Shown piece after piece: positions 13,276 to 27,325 of a DNA stretch of 32,000 nucleotides; position 1 is the first letter of the stretch; the number at the start of each line of letters is the position of its first letter. A model generated the notes under the pieces. That model worked only from the letters and a program-made list of their open reading frames with translations. It was not told the DNA's origin and did not search any database. The DNA is from Bremerella sp. P1 (GTDB lineage Bacteria; Planctomycetota; Planctomycetia; Pirellulales; Pirellulaceae): assembly GCF_028748185.1 (NCBI RefSeq), contig NZ_CP118164.1, positions 3,403,814-3,435,813 on the forward strand, given 5' to 3'. The position numbers and the translations under genes were made by a program.

Positions 13276-14619
13276 CTACAGCAGTTCGCTGGCGATGTCT
13301 GCCAGTTCCGAACGTTCGCCTTTCTCAAGCGAGATGTGAGCGTACAGGTCTTGCCCTTTCATGCGGTTGATCATGTACGACAAACCGTTGGACAAACTAT
13401 CCAGGTATGGATGGTCGATCTGGTTGATGTCGCCGGTGAAGACGATCTTGGTCCCCTCGCCTGCCCGGGTGATGATGGTCTTCACCTCGTGTGGGGTCAG
13501 GTTCTGGGCTTCGTCGACAATCATGTACATCCGCTGCAAGCTACGTCCGCGAATGTAGGCCAGCGGCGTAATGACCAGCTTTTCCTGCTCCAGCATACGG
13601 TTGATACGCTGGGCTTCTTTGTCGGTATCGTTGAACTGATGCCGGATCACTGAGAGGTTGTCGAACAGCGGCTGCATGTACGGATCCATCTTCGCCGAAA
13701 TATCGCCAGGCAAATAACCCAGGTCTCGGTTGGAAAGAGGAACGACCGGCCGAGCCAACAAGATCTGGCGATACGCCGATGAGCAAGCCAAGGCCGACGA
13801 AAGCGCGAGCAGTGTCTTACCGGTACCGGCCTTGCCGGCCAGGGTGACCAGCTTGATGTTGTCATCCATCAATGCCTTGATGGCGAACACCTGCTCAGCG
13901 TTGCGCGGCTTGATGCCGTACGGGCTGTACTTCTCGATTCGCCGCAGGACTTGTTCTTCGTGGTTGAAGGTCGCCAGAACCGACTTCGATCCGTTTCGCA
14001 GGACGAAGTTTTCGTTAGCGATCGGATCGCTCACTTCGGGAAAATCTTCCAGGTGAACGTTGCCAGAGTCCTGGTAGAAACGATCGATTTGTTCGGTCGT
14101 GATGTTCTCGAGGGTTCGGCGACCCGAGTAGAGGCTGTCGAAACTCTCGATCTTGTCGTTGATATAGTCTTGTGCCTGAAGGCCAAGGCTCTTAGCTTTC
14201 ATCCGCAGATTCACGTCCTTGGTGATCAGGATCACACGCCGATCGTTGACGTAACGTTGCAGATGGAGGGCCGTGTTCAGAATACGATTATCAGGCGAGT
14301 CGTGGAGAAAAACCTGATGGAGGCGAGCGTCTAATTCGTTGGTGATGATGACTCGGAGGCGGCCTTGTTCTTCGCCTAATGTGGCCCCTTCTTCAGAGAG
14401 TAGATCGCCGGTCATTTGGTCGATCTGGCGAAGAAACTCGCGGGCCTGGAAATTGATGTCCTCGTTGCCTTTTTTGAAGCGATCCAACTCCTCGAGGACG
14501 GTGATGGGCAAGGCCACATCGTGCTCCTCAAAATTTTGGAACGATCTTGCATCGTGCAAGATAACGTTGGTGTCGAGAACGAAAAGCTTCAACTGCGTCT
14601 GCACCGACTGACTAATCAT
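13276..14619 (-). CDS. PIN domain plus PhoH family ATPase
   Basis: N-terminal PIN domain ([11 protein letters not shown]..., [12 protein letters not shown]), C-terminal PhoH ([76 protein letters not shown]). Confidence 0.93.
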
Positions 14620-14695
14620 GCGTTCTCCGTTTGCACGGGACCATGGGCACGCGAGAGTGAAATGCCGAGTCGAAGGGCAACTGTGCGTCCCTTGT

Positions 14696-14728
14696 GGTCA
14701 CAATCCATTGCTTAGCTGGATTGTGACC
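14696..14728. repeat. Perfect 11-bp inverted repeat GGTCACAATCC-(11 nt)-GGATTGTGACC
   Basis: Read directly from the sequence; lies between the divergent phoH-type gene and the 15125 ORF, 77 bp upstream of the phoH-type start codon. Confidence 0.85.
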
Positions 14729-15124
14729 GAGGTGCCATCCTGGGAAAAGCCCGCTTTTTCCATGTCGTAACATTTTCAGGAAAATAGGCGAACTGCAGGA
14801 AATGGCCCCTCTGAGTATCTTCCGTGCGTTAATTGATTATACCGTATCGGACATATCCCTGTTTCTCAGGTTCGTCTCGTTTTAGCACTTAGACCTTTTG
14901 CACCAGTGACGTAACGTCTACTTACGAGAAACTTTGCGGAACCTTCGCCAGAATTTTGCCTCTCCGGAAAGTCTACCCAGGTGGACAGCGCAAAGATCGA
15001 AAAACTCCGGTCTTTGAGTTGCCGCCTATTGGGGGCAATGCCTACAATCGAGCAATACATGGAAGCGGTTTCGCGGATGGTTGCGAGATCCAAGTCGTGC
15101 ACCTTTTGAGACGAAAGGTTCTCA

Positions 15125-16639
15125 ATGGATTATGCGTCGATTCTGGCTCGTTACATCGGCAGGGAAGTTTATGTATCGACATTTGGCCACGTTCGCTTAC
15201 GTGGAGAATTGGTCGCAGTTTACGAAGACTGCGTCCGTCTAATTAATGCCTCGACTTCGCAAGAGTCTGAGGATGCCCCTTGGTCTAGTTCGGTGACGGA
15301 CTTTGGTGATGATGGACCCCAAACGGACGGCTCGGAAGCCCTGGTCCACTTTCATCACATTGTCGCGATCCGCTGTGCGGATGACGAATTGCTAGATGTT
15401 CCGGTGCTGCCGGAATTCAGTGCAGAGTCGTCTGAACCGATGGTCGAGAATGACACCACCACAGCCCAAGGGAGCACGCAGGAACCTTGGGAAGCGTTCC
15501 TCGAAGTGGATCGTTTAACCCTGGAATTGGGGCAAAAACTGGTCAAACTCGTGCATCCCGAGTCAACGGACATCATGCAGCGGACCTCTGCGATTCGCTG
15601 TCATTTGGCCGATTCGTTGGGGATGGTGATTCCGAGATTGCGCCTGCGTGATTCGCTTGATTTAGGGGATCAGGAATACCGAATCCTCATCGATCAATAC
15701 GAGGTCGCTCGCGGCCGACTGGGCCCTGGACAGTATCTGGCCCTCGACATGGGAACCTCCAGCGGAACGTTGCAAGGCGTCCGCGGGATCGATCCTACGT
15801 TTGGTGGACCAGGTATCTGGATCAAGTCCGATCAGCAGCAAGAGGCCGAGCAACTTGGCTATCTGGTTATCGATCCTTCGATGCTGGTGATTACGCATCT
15901 GCAGGAAACCTTGCGGCGACATGCCCACGAGATTCTGACGCTGGGCGACGTTCGTGAAATGCTCGAACGGCTGCGGGATCGCTCGCCGGGCGAGTTCGAC
16001 GAGATTCGCTCGAGCCCGATGACAGTGTCCATGTTGCACGCAGTTTTACGGCGATTATTAGAAGAAGGGGAGTCGATCAAGAACTTCTCGCGAATCGTCG
16101 AGATTCTGGCCCTGCACGGACACCGCAATCAAGACATTGAATCGCTGGTCGCGATGGTCCGCGTCCGACTCGGACGACAGTTAGTCCAGCGCTATATCGA
16201 TTCGGATGGGAAAGTCCATGCGATCGGTCTCGACCGAGAGTTGGAAGCTCCCCTACTGCAGATGAGCGACGAAGACGCTGGTCGGCACGTACGCGGCTGG
16301 ATGGAACGTCTTGTCGACGTATTGCGTGAAGCGTTCAATCGGCTCGACGAACAACAGCGACCGGTCGCGGTTATCGTTTCGTCCGATCTGCGGAATCGCT
16401 TGTGGCAAATCCTTTCGCCTCACTTCCCGCAGGTTACTGTCCTGAGCCTGGCGGAGATTCCGCGGGGGACCGACATCTACTGGCAGGTGATCATTTCGCC
16501 GGAAGAGGTCGGAGCCTTGGAAACGGCCGTCAAACGCCCACAGCACCCGGCGGTCGCGAAGGACACCACCTATCGTCCGAGCAAGAGCAAGATGTCCGAG
16601 CACATGGCGGAAGAATTGCCCCCGCGTCGGCCACGTTAA
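15125..16639 (+). CDS. Soluble protein with Sm-like N-terminus and FHIPEP (FlhA/SctV) cytoplasmic C-domain
   Basis: DYASILARYIGREVYVSTFGHVRLRGELVAVYEDCVRLINA...FHHIVAIRC (Sm-like pattern), followed by TLELGQKLVKLVHPESTDIMQRTSAIRCHLADSLGMVIPRLRLRDSLDLGDQEYRILIDQYEVARGRL..., GPGIWIKSDQQQEAEQLGYLVIDPSMLVITHLQETLRRHAHEILTLGDVREMLERL and SMLHAVLRRLLEEGESIKNFSRIVEILA, the FlhA_C signature. No TM segment. Confidence 0.85.
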   Translation: MDYASILARYIGREVYVSTFGHVRLRGELVAVYEDCVRLINASTSQESEDAPWSSSVTDFGDDGPQTDGSEALVHFHHIVAIRCADDELLDVPVLPEFSAESSEPMVENDTTTAQGSTQEPWEAFLEVDRLTLELGQKLVKLVHPESTDIMQRTSAIRCHLADSLGMVIPRLRLRDSLDLGDQEYRILIDQYEVARGRLGPGQYLALDMGTSSGTLQGVRGIDPTFGGPGIWIKSDQQQEAEQLGYLVIDPSMLVITHLQETLRRHAHEILTLGDVREMLERLRDRSPGEFDEIRSSPMTVSMLHAVLRRLLEEGESIKNFSRIVEILALHGHRNQDIESLVAMVRVRLGRQLVQRYIDSDGKVHAIGLDRELEAPLLQMSDEDAGRHVRGWMERLVDVLREAFNRLDEQQRPVAVIVSSDLRNRLWQILSPHFPQVTVLSLAEIPRGTDIYWQVIISPEEVGALETAVKRPQHPAVAKDTTYRPSKSKMSEHMAEELPPRRPR

Positions 16640-16660
16640 CGCAGCGAAGTAAACTTCAAG

Positions 16661-16704
16661 AGATGGCTACCGCCGGCTTCGGCGGTGGCCATCTTTCGTT
16701 TCTT
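16661..16704 (+). terminator. Strong intrinsic terminator of the 15125 gene
   Basis: 14-bp arms AGATGGCTACCGCC / GGCGGTGGCCATCT (one G-T wobble), 6-nt loop, then the T-rich TTTCGTTTCTT. Confidence 0.85.
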
Positions 16705-16712
16705 GACGCCCG

Positions 16713-17231
16713 CTAGTCTTCCAGTGCCTTACGTTCCTTCGGGTCAGGTACGACGTACGAGTCGACGATTTCCGATCTGCCCGGCGAGCTAGTGTAGGTG
16801 TGCGTTTCGCCATCCACGGTGGTCGTGGCCTGGATGTGGAACTTCGACTTGGCCCAGTTCAGGAAGCGTTTCTTCATCCATTCGCGGCAGGGCGGAATGA
16901 GCAAAGCGAAACCCAGCCCGTCGGTCAGCAGTCCTGGCGTCATCAAGAGAGCACCGGCCGCGAAGATCATCGCGGCGTCAGCCATCGCGCTGCCGGGCAT
17001 CTGTCCGGTCGCTAGCTGCGATTGAATCTTCTGCCAGGTCGAAAAACCTTGGCTGCGTGCCAGAAGCGTTCCCAGGATGCCAGTGAACAGCACGATGCCC
17101 AGCGTCACCAACCACCCTTCGTACTGGGCCAGCCACAGCAGCAAGGTGAGTTCCAGCAAGGGAACGGTGACGAAGAGAGCGAGTAGTATAGCAAAAACTT
17201 GAATGGTTCTAATCCGTGTTGAAAGGAGCAA
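16713..17231 (-). CDS. FxsA family membrane protein
   Basis: PLLELTLLLWLAQYEGWLVTLGIVLFTGILGTLLARSQG...GALLMTPGLLTDGLGFALLIPPCREWMKK. Confidence 0.9.
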   Translation of the reverse strand: MLLSTRIRTIQVFAILLALFVTVPLLELTLLLWLAQYEGWLVTLGIVLFTGILGTLLARSQGFSTWQKIQSQLATGQMPGSAMADAAMIFAAGALLMTPGLLTDGLGFALLIPPCREWMKKRFLNWAKSKFHIQATTTVDGETHTYTSSPGRSEIVDSYVVPDPKERKALED

Positions 17232-25506: not shown

Positions 25507-26418
25507 ATGCCTCAGCCACGGCTTGGCCACGAAAACCTGGGACTGGGGGTCGGACTGCGCGCCCCTCATTTCTCTTACATACTTGAGCACTGGCCGAAGG
25601 TCGACTGGTTCGAGATCATCTCGGAGAATTACATCGACTCGCAGGGACGCCCTCGGTATGTCCTTGATCAAATCGCCGAACGTTATCCGGTGGTGATGCA
25701 CGGCGTATCGCTCTCGATCGGCAGCACCGATCCGCTCGACTTCGATTATCTTGCCAAACTGAAGTCGCTATCGCAGGCGATTGGTGCCCGATGGATCTCG
25801 GATCATGTCTGTTGGACCGGCGTGTCCGGGCAGAATACGCACGATCTGTTACCAATTCCGTACAACGAAGAGTCGCTCAAGCACGTTGCCCAGCGGGTAC
25901 GCCAGGTGCAAGAGTTCCTTGAGCGTCCGCTGATCCTGGAAGATCCCAGCAGCTATGTCACCTTCGCCGCGTCAACGATGAGCGAGTGGGAATTCTTAAC
26001 GGCTTTGACCGAAGAGACTGGCTGCGGGCTGCTGCTCGATGTGAATAACGTTTATGTTTCGGCCGTGAATCACGACTTTGATCCGGTCGAGTACATCGAG
26101 AATCTTCCGTCGGAGAGCATCGTTCAGTTTCACCTGGCGGGGCATACCAACATGGGTGACTACTGCATCGACACACACGACGGCCACGTGATCGATCCCG
26201 TGTGGAAGCTGTATCGCCTGACTCACGAGCGAACTGGAGGCGTATCGACGTTGTTGGAATGGGATGCCAACATTCCCGACTTTCCGACGCTGCATGCCGA
26301 GGTTCTCAAGGCGAAGCGGTTTATCCAAGGGGAAACGATTACCGTCGATGAACCTGTCGGCAACGGCCACACGGCTGTTCCGCACCCGGCGCATCGTATC
26401 GAGCACGAAGTGAGCTAG
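25507..26418 (+). CDS. DUF692 / MNIO family multinuclear non-heme iron enzyme (BufB-like)
   Basis: [84 protein letters not shown] and DTHD.. are the conserved DUF692 motifs with metal-ligand candidates. Confidence 0.95.
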
Positions 26419-26422
26419 ATCG

Positions 26423-27325
26423 ATGACCGACAGTAAACAGAATTTGCACGACTTGCCGGTGCTTCAAAAGTGGATGCAGTCGGTGATCACTCATGTGGAC
26501 GGCGTGGTGGAAGGAATCCATTCGCCGGAGGCCCAGCAGCAGATCCCGGTAGACGCGTCCCAGATCGAGTCGGTCGTCACGCCCAGTCAGCGACGCACCA
26601 GCACCGAGCGACTGGAAGTGTACGCCCACGCTTACTATGCCAGGTTGGTCGAATGTTTGAAGTCGATCTATCCCCTGTTTGCCAAGACGGTTGGGGATGA
26701 ACTATTCGATCAGTTCGCGATTGCCTACTTGCAACAGCATCCGTCACGATCTTACACGCTGAATCGGCTGGGAGATCAGTTTCCCGATTTCCTGGAAGAG
26801 ACGAGCCCGACCCGCGGAACCGATCAGCTGGGATTCGAGGACTTCCTGGTCGAGTTGGCCGTTGCGGAACGCACCATTGATGCGATCTTCGACGGGCCTG
26901 GTGTCGAGCAGACGGACGTGCTCTCGCCGTCGGAGTTGGAAGGCATCTCGCCCGATCAGTTTGCCGAGGCTACGTTCCAGATGGTGCCCTGTCTGCGGCT
27001 GCACTCGTTTGCTTTCCCGGTGAGTGACTTCATCACCGCGATCAAGCAAGATCCCCAAGCTGATATGCCAGAAGCTTCACCCAGTTGGTTGGCTTTAACG
27101 CGGAGGGACTACGTCGTACGGAGGGTGCCACTTTCGCGCTGGCAGTATCATCTGCTGGTGCGGCTTGCCGAGGGGCAGAGTGTTTCCCAGGCGATCGCAG
27201 GAGCGGTCGTCGAAGTCGTTCCGTCAGAAGATATTACGGAATTGCTAGCGGCTGCTTTCCAGAAATTCACCAGCGAGCAGTTCTTTCTGGCAATTGAAGT
27301 CCCTTCGGAGCGAAGAGATGGATAG
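26423..27325 (+). CDS. DUF2063 N-terminal domain protein (BufC-like RiPP partner)
   Basis: ERLEVYAHAYYARLVECLKSIYPLFAKTVGDELFDQFAIAYLQQHPSRSYTLNRLGDQFPDFLEE is DUF2063-like; 4 bp downstream of the DUF692 gene. Confidence 0.9.
   Translation: MTDSKQNLHDLPVLQKWMQSVITHVDGVVEGIHSPEAQQQIPVDASQIESVVTPSQRRTSTERLEVYAHAYYARLVECLKSIYPLFAKTVGDELFDQFAIAYLQQHPSRSYTLNRLGDQFPDFLEETSPTRGTDQLGFEDFLVELAVAERTIDAIFDGPGVEQTDVLSPSELEGISPDQFAEATFQMVPCLRLHSFAFPVSDFITAIKQDPQADMPEASPSWLALTRRDYVVRRVPLSRWQYHLLVRLAEGQSVSQAIAGAVVEVVPSEDITELLAAAFQKFTSEQFFLAIEVPSERRDG

What the first reader, a model, noticed from the sequence alone, without database searches (positions are those of the whole stretch)
15125..16639. Orphan soluble FlhA/SctV C-terminal domain fused to an Sm-like N-terminus
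Residues from about 125 on match the cytoplasmic domain of the flagellar/type III export gate FlhA/SctV motif by motif (RLRIRD-like, EVARG, P.FGGPGIWI, AEQLGYLVIDPSMLVITHL.E..RRHA.E, SIKNFSRIVEILA). The eight-TM FHIPEP channel domain is absent. It is replaced by a short segment, ILARYIGREVYVSTFGHVRLRGELVAVYEDCVRLINA..FHHIVAIRC, that reads like an Sm/LSm fold. No flagellar or T3SS gene is in the window, and the gene has its own strong terminator, so it looks monocistronic. FlhA_C normally forms a nonameric ring that binds chaperone-substrate complexes, and Sm domains also form rings. A repurposed ring adaptor, scaffold or RNA/peptide-binding device is a testable idea.
Basis: partly seen in the sequence, partly recalled or inferred. 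Interest (0 to 1): 0.8.

Follow-up and report, generated by a model that had tools for sequence, protein, structure and literature searches.

The report
Soluble Sm-fold FlhA paralogue in planctomycetes
This gene encodes a membrane-less copy of the cytoplasmic ring domain of the flagellar export gate FlhA with an Sm-fold domain where the membrane channel should be; it belongs to an undescribed protein family of planctomycetes that databases label simply as "FlhA".

Summary
ORF 15125-16639 (+) encodes 504 aa. Residues ~107-448 match only the C-terminal half of FHIPEP/FlhA (Pfam E=4e-75, profile 309-655 of 657; Salmonella FlhA_C structures E~1e-50). There is no TM segment. With a 51-sequence alignment, AlphaFold2 models residues 1-86 as helix + five strands (core pLDDT >90), and the top 50 PDB fold matches listed are all Sm/LSm proteins.

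It is not a one-off. An exhaustive profile search found the N-domain in 66 clusters (50% identity), always N-terminal; 58 also carry FlhA_C. Named members are all Pirellulaceae, and the window is ~91-92% identical to Bremerella.

The FlhA chaperone-binding dimple (Salmonella D456/F459/T490) is conserved family-wide. The canonical Sm2 "RG" motif is not.

No flagellar or T3SS gene lies near any of the 14 family loci examined. The gene has its own conserved sigma-70-type promoter and a terminator hairpin.

My best reading: a cytoplasmic FlhA_C paralogue, oligomerised or positioned by its Sm domain, that binds chaperone-type ligands.

Untested: whether the same genomes also hold a full-length FlhA (paralogue) or only a TM-only half (split gene), the oligomer state, and RNA binding.

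The parts
15019..15048 (+). Sigma-70-type promoter (TTGCCG, 18-nt spacer, TACAAT), about 77 nt upstream of the ATG
   Evidence: Consensus scan. Both hexamers lie in blocks that stay conserved in 7 orthologous intergenic regions, including Blastopirellula where the rest has diverged (one Blastopirellula sequence has one change in the -10 hexamer). No sigma-28 or sigma-54-like site was found.
15125..16639 (+). CDS of 504 aa: Sm-like domain, acidic linker, FlhA_C, and a basic C-terminal tail
15125..15382 (+). Sm-fold N-terminal domain (aa 1-86): helix 3-8, strands 14-19, 23-32, 36-46, 71-75, 79-84
   Evidence: AF2 with alignment A4, mean pLDDT 77 and core above 90. Foldseek PDB top 50 are all Sm/LSm. 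Pfam tally. PDB profile search.
15254..15334 (+). Long loop between strands 3 and 4 (aa 44-70) carrying a conserved acidic-Trp motif (E-x-D/E-D-x-x-W; W53)
   Evidence: Low pLDDT for residues 48-64. W53 is kept in 49 of 56 diverse members and E47 is E or D in 48 of 56.
15383..15499 (+). Acidic linker without basic residues (aa 87-125). It ends in the FlhA-linker-like 'EPWEAF', where W122 aligns with Salmonella W354
   Evidence: Composition: 10 D+E, 0 K+R, 4 P. Alignment to 6AI0. The linker Trp is retained in only 7 of 56 family members.
15500..16474 (+). FlhA_C cytoplasmic domain (aa 126-450, subdomains D1-D4) with the chaperone-binding dimple D223/F226/T257
   Evidence: Pfam and TIGRFAM. PDB FlhA_C matches at E about 1e-50 with residue alignment. 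Dimple conservation across the family.
16475..16636 (+). Family-specific C-terminal extension (aa 451-504) ending in R-R-P-R
   Evidence: It lies beyond the end of the FHIPEP profile. 32 of 56 diverse members end in P-R or P-K. R501, P503 and R504 are invariant in the Bremerella/Blastopirellula clade.
16659..16696 (+). Terminator-like hairpin (17-bp stem, 10 G-C pairs) between this gene and the convergent FxsA gene
13276..14619 (-). Divergent neighbour: a PIN+PhoH (PhoH2-type) protein. The synteny is conserved, but no functional link is shown
   Evidence: Pfam. It is present upstream and divergent in all 8 orthologue loci with at least 50% identity, and absent next to more distant members.

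Best explanation
The gene encodes a soluble cytoplasmic paralogue of the flagellar export-gate protein FlhA. The eight-helix membrane engine is replaced by an Sm-fold domain, joined to a complete FlhA_C domain (D1-D4) by a flexible acidic linker.

Shown:
- The architecture.
- The Sm fold (predicted structure plus fold search).
- Retention of the FlhA residues that bind export-chaperone/substrate complexes.
- Independent sigma-70-type transcription away from any flagellar operon.
- Conservation as a family in Pirellulaceae and in unnamed metagenome lineages.

Inferred:
- Isolated FlhA_C is monomeric and needs help to form its nonameric ring. The Sm domain, a fold that typically self-assembles into rings, could supply the oligomerisation or positioning that the membrane domain normally gives.
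- The FlhA_C dimple would then bind FliS/FlgN/FliT-type chaperone-substrate complexes, or peptides that mimic them, in the cytoplasm.
- The protein would act as a holding or sorting platform, or as a decoy, that tunes delivery of late flagellar substrates. This could be linked to the sessile-mother/flagellated-daughter life cycle of these bacteria.
For: Architecture.

Sm fold.

Family: 66 representative clusters carry the N-domain, always at the N-terminus; 58 of them carry FlhA_C. Named genomes are all Pirellulaceae.

Conserved sites across 56 diverse members:
- Salmonella D456 is E or D in 47.
- F459 is F, Y or W in 49.
- T490 is T in 36.
- R391, G399 and P403 are invariant or nearly so.

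Roles of these residues, and the monomeric state of free FlhA_C, come from PMC5916509.

Own conserved promoter and terminator.

No flagellar genes next to members from six distinct clades.

The protein scores closer to flagellar FlhA than to SctV. B. marina DSM 3645, which carries a member (L009), is flagellated with a dimorphic life cycle (PMC7716919) and has no virulence T3SS (PMC2702493).
Against: - No binding partner, oligomer state or phenotype is known.
- I could not show that the same genomes also encode a full-length FlhA.
- Known Sm rings have five to eight subunits (my recollection of the literature) and FlhA_C rings have nine, so a simple stacked-ring model has a symmetry mismatch.
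- The FlhA linker motif that drives ring cooperativity is kept in only 7 of 56 members.
- Gene neighbourhoods give no flagellar association at all, so the ligand could be non-flagellar.
Confidence: 0.45

Rival explanations
1. Split FlhA. The export gate's membrane half is encoded elsewhere as a TM-only FHIPEP gene. This protein is the one and only FlhA_C of the flagellar export apparatus and docks on the gate through its Sm domain instead of a covalent linker.
For: The chaperone-binding dimple and the D1 basic residue R391 are conserved as in functional FlhA. In this clade the linker Trp is kept. I never recovered a named full-length FlhA from Blastopirellula or Bremerella, although that search is insensitive.
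Against: Nothing adjacent supports it: no TM half lies within 15 kb in the window or within 10 kb in relatives. The linker motif needed for FliJ binding and ring cooperativity is lost in 49 of 56 members. Transcription comes from a housekeeping-type promoter far from flagellar genes. Family-specific additions (the Sm-loop motif and the P-R tail) suggest a new function. FlhA is normally single-copy and intact in flagellated bacteria (general knowledge).
Confidence: 0.12
2. RNA-linked regulator. The Sm domain binds RNA (for example flagellin or other mRNAs, or small RNAs) and FlhA_C senses chaperone or substrate occupancy. This would couple translation or RNA turnover to secretion status, possibly together with the conserved neighbour PhoH2 (PIN RNase plus PhoH helicase).
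For: The Sm fold is supported. The divergent PIN-PhoH neighbour is conserved in all 8 orthologue loci with at least 50% identity. A precedent for secretion-translation coupling at FlhA_C is the FliS/flagellin/FliW system (PMC6070490, listed; abstract only read).
Against: The canonical Sm2 Arg-Gly of the uridine pocket is replaced: H77 is present in 35 of 56 members. The N-domain is net acidic, with 14 D+E against 6 K+R. PhoH2 synteny is lost in more distant members. Many Sm-fold domains, such as RimP_C and the Edc3 LSm domain, are protein-binding modules (general knowledge).
Confidence: 0.13
3. Fully repurposed scaffold. The family no longer has anything to do with flagella, and FlhA_C serves as a generic peptide-binding or ring scaffold in another cellular process.
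For: No flagellar neighbour was found in any context. A second unrelated architecture also recruits part of FlhA_C (P0031 family), which shows the domain is reusable. Family-specific motifs exist.
Against: Unlike the P0031 family, this family keeps the specific chaperone-binding dimple. The named hosts include a flagellated species.
Confidence: 0.22
4. Artefact: a truncated or pseudogenised flhA with a spurious upstream reading frame.
For: None beyond the missing TM domain.
Against: The N-terminal domain is the most conserved part of the protein. The start codon and full length are conserved from 93% down to about 22% identity in 58 representative clusters. The domain folds confidently.
Confidence: 0.01

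Closest known systems
FlhA (flagellar type III export gate; Pfam PF00771 FHIPEP, TIGR01398), cytoplasmic domain FlhA_C (PDB 3A5I, 6AI0, 6CH1, 3MIX, 3MYD)
   Same: All of FlhA_C (the end of the linker plus D1-D4) aligns at E about 1e-50. The chaperone-binding dimple D456/F459/T490, R391, G399 and P403 are conserved. The protein is closer to flagellar FlhA than to injectisome SctV.
   Different: It has no membrane domain (profile positions 1-308 are missing and there is no TM helix). It is not in a flagellar operon. It has an Sm-fold N-terminus, a variable acidic linker and a roughly 55-aa C-terminal extension ending in P-R. The score is far below the TIGR01398 full-length cut-off.
Sm/LSm proteins (Pfam PF01423; archaeal SmAP such as 1I4K and 1M8V; eukaryotic Lsm1-7; Hfq) and Sm-clan domains (DUF6897/MM0924 family, RimP C-terminal domain, Edc3 LSm, PDB 1YCY)
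   Same: The topology is an N-terminal helix plus five bent strands. The Sm1-like pattern G..(L/V)..V..D..RL has an invariant Gly. Foldseek probability is 1.0 with target-normalised TM up to 0.79. Weak but consistent sequence-profile hits were found.
   Different: All sequence hits are below the curated thresholds. The Sm2 RG motif is absent. A long loop between strands 3 and 4 carries its own conserved acidic-Trp motif. The domain is fused to a 325-aa FlhA_C, an architecture I found in no paper searched.
Orphan flagellar FlhA/FliI/FliF homologues of Chlamydia (PMC2830194, listed)
   Same: These are FlhA homologues kept outside a flagellar operon and possibly serving another role.
   Different: From general knowledge, not checked here: the chlamydial FlhA is a full-length membrane protein with no Sm domain.
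P0031/P0115/P0116 family found here
   Same: It is another protein family that carries FlhA_C sequence without the FHIPEP membrane domain, and it is encoded away from flagellar genes.
   Different: Only profile positions about 262-547 are present (no D4). The N-terminal region is a different 450-aa segment with hydrophobic stretches and a zinc-finger-like motif. The dimple motif is not conserved.

Membership tests
FlhA / FHIPEP (PF00771, TIGR01398) | N-terminal polytopic membrane domain (about 8 TM helices, with the FHIPEP cytoplasmic loop) | tested here: not met
   The Pfam match starts at profile position 309 of 657. TIGR01398 scores 276 bits against a cut-off of 772. The highest 19-residue hydropathy mean is 0.94, so there is no TM segment.
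FlhA / FHIPEP (PF00771, TIGR01398) | C-terminal cytoplasmic domain FlhA_C with subdomains D1-D4 | tested here: met
   Residues 107-448 match profile 309-655 at E=3.8e-75. Salmonella, Bacillus, Helicobacter and Vibrio FlhA_C structures match at E=1e-31 to 1e-50.
FlhA / FHIPEP (PF00771, TIGR01398) | Conserved hydrophobic dimple that binds export chaperones (Salmonella D456, F459, T490) | tested here: met
   D223, F226 and T257 align to these residues. Family-wide they are kept in 47, 49 and 36 of 56 members. Their role is cited from PMC5916509. Binding itself was not tested.
FlhA / FHIPEP (PF00771, TIGR01398) | Linker FlhA_L motif (E351/W354/D356) that binds the neighbouring subunit and FliJ | tested here: inconclusive
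   W122 aligns with W354 in this clade, but E351 aligns with Q119 and D356 with A124. The Trp is present in only 7 of 56 family members.
FlhA / FHIPEP (PF00771, TIGR01398) | Encoded with other export-apparatus genes (flhB, fliPQR) or within a flagellar or T3SS regulon | tested here: not met
   No such gene is in the window or in the flanks of relatives. Canonical FlhAs P0022 and P0025 sit in fliPQR-flhBA operons. The promoter is sigma-70-type, not sigma-28.
FlhA / FHIPEP (PF00771, TIGR01398) | Nonameric ring assembly | not testable with these tools
   No multimer prediction tool is available. It needs AF-Multimer, SEC-MALS or cryo-EM.
Sm / LSm (PF01423 and Sm clan) | Sm fold: N-terminal alpha-helix followed by a strongly bent five-stranded antiparallel sheet | tested here: met
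   The AF2 model has H3-8, E14-19, E23-32, E36-46, E71-75 and E79-84, with core pLDDT above 90. The top 50 Foldseek PDB hits are all Sm/LSm. This rests on a predicted structure, not a solved one.
Sm / LSm (PF01423 and Sm clan) | Sequence membership at the curated Pfam threshold | tested here: not met
   The best LSM hit among 51 members is E=4.2e-4, and only 12 of 51 match at E<=1. DUF6897 matches 18 of 51 and RimP_C 17 of 51. For the window protein the hits are all below the gathering scores (11.8-16.4 bits against cut-offs of 23.9-26.3).
Sm / LSm (PF01423 and Sm clan) | Sm1 motif (conserved Gly and Asp, then Asn) and Sm2 motif (I/V-R-G) forming the uridine pocket | tested here: not met
   G27 is invariant and D35 is kept in 39 of 56, but the Sm2 position carries H77 (35 of 56) with no Arg-Gly. 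The Asn equivalent appears to be R38 by my reading of the sequence; no structural superposition was done.
Sm / LSm (PF01423 and Sm clan) | Homo- or hetero-oligomeric ring (five to eight subunits) and RNA binding | not testable with these tools
   It requires multimer modelling or biochemistry.

The most novel reading that the evidence does not exclude
The Sm-FlhA_C protein assembles into a free cytoplasmic ring, a membrane-less 'export gate platform'. It captures chaperone-substrate complexes through the FlhA dimple while its Sm ring binds RNA or a partner. This would couple flagellin synthesis to the cell-cycle switch between sessile mother and flagellated daughter. In most members the conserved acidic-Trp motif in the Sm loop would replace the lost FlhA linker as the inter-subunit latch.
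Probability: 0.12. Interest if true: 0.85.

Novelty: new variant of a known kind. Interest (0 to 1): 0.62.

Why it matters
FlhA/SctV is regarded as an obligate membrane component, and its cytoplasmic ring is the substrate-sorting hub of every type III secretion machine. A conserved, independently transcribed, soluble version with an Sm-fold domain in place of the membrane engine would show that the sorting ring can work, or be regulated, off the membrane.

It offers a natural system for asking how FlhA_C rings assemble without a membrane anchor, and what else the chaperone-binding dimple can recognise.

It also corrects annotation. NCBI and UniRef name these proteins 'flagellar biosynthesis protein FlhA' or 'FHIPEP family type III secretion protein'. 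That could mislead flagellar gene inventories in Planctomycetota.

Tried and rejected
1. AF2 on the N-domain with a shallow 15-sequence alignment gave pLDDT 49 and a wrong helix. I discarded it, and the 51-sequence alignment resolved the fold.
2. phmmer of the N-domain alone against PDB sequences found nothing. Only the profile search did.
3. A genome scan with the 56-member alignment failed because there was no conserved stretch. The narrower alignment A5 found only 8 loci, because its search patterns were clade-specific.
4. The search for homologous proteins with the family profile returned the same set as the first search.
5. P0031 as bait for planctomycete FlhA gave 3 hits. P0031 then proved not to be a canonical FlhA, so my assumption was wrong and the question of a full-length FlhA in the host remains open.
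7. Rfam on 14500-16800 gave only sub-threshold noise.
8. The PADLOC defence models gave no hit for this protein.
9. No sigma-28 or sigma-54 promoter patterns were found.
10. Literature searches found no description of this architecture. DOI 10.1073/pnas.0700266104, which I looked up hoping for planctomycete flagellar gene data, is not held.
11. I rejected the pseudogene or truncation reading because of the conservation pattern.
Full report
**Observation**

- Pfam FHIPEP matches residues 107-448 at E=3.8e-75, but only over profile positions 309-655 of 657.
- TIGR01398 (FlhA) gives 276 bits against a full-length cut-off of 772. It clearly beats the injectisome models (SctV/HrcV, 123 bits), so the domain is of the flagellar type.
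- Hydropathy shows no transmembrane segment; the highest 19-residue Kyte-Doolittle mean is 0.94.
- phmmer against PDB sequences returns Salmonella, Bacillus, Helicobacter and Vibrio FlhA_C structures at E=1e-31 to 1e-50.

In the residue alignment to Salmonella FlhA_C:
- The linker Trp354 aligns with W122.
- The chaperone-binding dimple residues D456, F459 and T490 align with D223, F226 and T257.
- R391, G399 and P403 align with R158, G166 and P170.

The roles of these residues come from Terahara et al. 2018 (PMC5916509). That paper also reports that isolated FlhA_C is a monomer in solution and that ring formation depends on the linker.

**The N-terminal domain**

Single-sequence searches gave only weak hits: RimP C-terminal SH3 domain, DUF6897 and the MM0924 family. 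There was nothing in PDB by phmmer. A first AF2 model from 15 close orthologues was poor, with pLDDT 49.

An exhaustive HMM search of 1.84 billion representative proteins with the N-domain profile found 66 clusters. The domain is always at the very N-terminus, and the proteins are nearly all 427-569 aa. By phmmer, 58 of the 66 also carry FlhA_C. The other eight are 110-243 aa; they may be fragments, which I did not resolve.

With 51 diverse N-domains (A4), AF2 gave mean pLDDT 77, with the core above 90. The model is helix 3-8, strands 14-19, 23-32 and 36-46, a disordered loop 48-64, then strands 71-75 and 79-84. That is the Sm topology.

- Foldseek against the PDB returned only Sm/LSm proteins in its top 50: Lsm1-7, SmF and archaeal SmAPs, with probability 1.0 and target-normalised TM up to 0.79.
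- A per-member Pfam tally gave sub-threshold hits, the most frequent of them Sm-type families: DUF6897 18, RimP_C 17, LSM 12 (best E=4e-4), SM-ATX 4, DUF2642 2, plus single hits to LSM14 and Gemin7.
- A profile search of PDB sequences found 1ycy (E=5e-4), the Edc3 LSm domain, SmD1, SmG, LSm3/8 and Hfq.

There are two caveats. The curated LSM threshold is not reached. The Sm2 Arg-Gly of the uridine pocket is replaced: H77 is present in 35 of 56 members. RNA binding therefore cannot be assumed.

**Family anatomy**

Across 56 diverse members (A3, 21-76% identity to the window protein), the conserved features are as follows (unless stated).

- Sm core residues: G27 invariant, R9, Y10, L39, E71, C84 and D86.
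- An acidic-Trp motif in the long loop between strands 3 and 4: E-L-D-D-x-G-W-F/Y, with W53 kept in 49 of 56.
- A 30-80-aa acidic, variable linker.
- FlhA_C with a conserved dimple: acidic 47 of 56, aromatic 49 of 56, Thr 36 of 56.
- An invariant R158, equivalent to R391.
- A family-specific C-terminal extension that ends in P-R or P-K in 32 of 56 members.

The canonical FlhA-linker Trp survives in only 7 of 56 members, including this window's clade.

**Genomic setting**

The window has no flagellar or T3SS gene in the 27 other large ORFs scanned. Neighbours are housekeeping or metabolic.

- Upstream lies a divergent PIN+PhoH gene, across a 505-bp gap.
- Downstream lie a 17-bp-stem hairpin and the convergent FxsA gene.
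- A TTGCCG-N18-TACAAT promoter sits at 15019-15048. Both hexamers lie in blocks conserved across seven orthologous intergenic regions, even where the rest has diverged.
- No sigma-28 or sigma-54 pattern is present.

The genome scan found eight loci, all in Pirellulaceae: Bremerella sp. JC770 (91%), a Bremerella MAG (92%), B. cremea (79%), B. marina DSM 3645 (56%) and several MAGs. The window therefore comes from a Bremerella-like planctomycete.

PIN-PhoH synteny holds in all eight orthologue loci with at least 50% identity, but not next to more distant members. None of the contexts, from six distinct clades, contains flagellar genes. By contrast, canonical full-length FlhAs retrieved in the same search sit in fliPQR-flhBA-flhF operons.

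**What remains open**

This is excluded for the window and for the 10-kb flanks of relatives.

I could not test whether the same genomes also hold a full-length FlhA elsewhere. My bait P0031 turned out to be another non-canonical FlhA_C protein.

B. marina DSM 3645 carries a family member (L009). It is flagellated with a dimorphic life cycle (PMC7716919) and lacks a virulence T3SS (PMC2702493). An FHIPEP membrane domain must therefore exist somewhere in that genome. Whether it is part of an intact FlhA (making this gene a paralogue) or a TM-only half (making it a split gene) is the decisive missing computation.

**Mechanism**

Shown: the architecture, the fold, the conserved dimple and independent transcription.

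Inferred:
- Free FlhA_C does not ring up by itself (PMC5916509), and Sm domains typically self-assemble. The Sm domain therefore most plausibly replaces the membrane domain as the oligomerisation or docking module.
- The conserved dimple implies binding of export-chaperone-type ligands in the cytoplasm.
- I favour a soluble holding or sorting platform, or a decoy, acting on late flagellar substrates (confidence about 0.45).

Rivals:
- A fully repurposed scaffold (0.22).
- An RNA-linked regulator (0.13).
- A split FlhA (0.12).
- An artefact (0.01).

Two points weigh against a simple stacked-ring model: the mismatch between known Sm rings (five to eight subunits, from my recollection of the literature) and nonameric FlhA_C rings, and the loss of the linker motif in most members.

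**Novelty**

Both domains are well known. I found no description of an Sm-FlhA_C fusion or of a soluble FlhA_C paralogue family in the held literature. Databases label these proteins as FlhA or FHIPEP. I rate it a new variant of a known kind, with interest 0.62.

Noticed in passing
L016:10001-12226 (P0031), L020:10001-12103 (P0116), and P0115: A second non-canonical FlhA_C family of 700-741 aa. FHIPEP matches only profile positions about 262-547, at the C-terminus. An unrelated ~450-aa N-terminal region has 1-3 hydrophobic segments and a weak C2H2 zinc-finger-like motif. The FlhA dimple is not conserved. Synteny with Ku/LigD, amine oxidase, a spermine-synthase-like gene and DUF4178 is conserved, and there are no flagellar neighbours.
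   Followed up: partly
window 25507-27325 (+): A DUF692 MbnB/TglH/ChrH-type enzyme (E=7e-111) is directly followed by a DUF2063/NGO1945_C protein. This is the two-gene core of RiPP-type clusters. A small precursor ORF may lie just upstream.
   Followed up: no
window 13276-14619 (-) and intergenic 14620-14800: The PIN+PhoH (PhoH2-type) gene is 77-98% identical across Bremerella and Blastopirellula and always lies divergent to the Sm-FlhA_C gene. The ~180 bp next to its start codon are strongly conserved within Bremerella, and include an imperfect inverted repeat GTGGTCACAATCCA...TGGATTGTGACC. No Rfam match was found.
   Followed up: partly
window 16475-16636 (aa 451-504) and family-wide: The extreme C-terminus ends in R-x-P-R or K-x-P-K in 32 of 56 diverse family members. 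The tail is otherwise variable. No known recognition motif comes to mind; it could be a degron or a docking tag.
   Followed up: partly
L015:11522-13523, and the contig of P0037: In the P0036/P0037 clade, the Sm-FlhA_C gene is followed on the same strand, 7-25 bp downstream, by a UbiE-type methyltransferase and an Amidohydro_1 gene. This may be an operon there. P0076 has a UbiE-type methyltransferase and an Aminotran_4 gene divergently upstream.
   Followed up: no
L004:2004-3905: In a canonical flagellar operon from a metagenome, one 633-aa gene product carries both FliF (YscJ_FliF) and FliG (N, M, C) domains. This is a natural FliF-FliG fusion.
   Followed up: no
P0014, P0015, P0007, P0016, P0017: NCBI and UniRef name these TM-less proteins of roughly 490-503 aa 'flagellar biosynthesis protein FlhA' or 'FHIPEP family type III secretion protein'. 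This annotation could be mistaken for the real export-gate gene in flagellar inventories.
   Followed up: yes
P0038, P0040, P0065, P0073, P0089, P0090, P0096: Some representatives with the Sm-like N-domain are only 110-243 aa and have no FlhA_C hit. P0096 (215 aa) still ends in K-P-R. They may be contig-end fragments or genuine short stand-alone forms.
   Followed up: no
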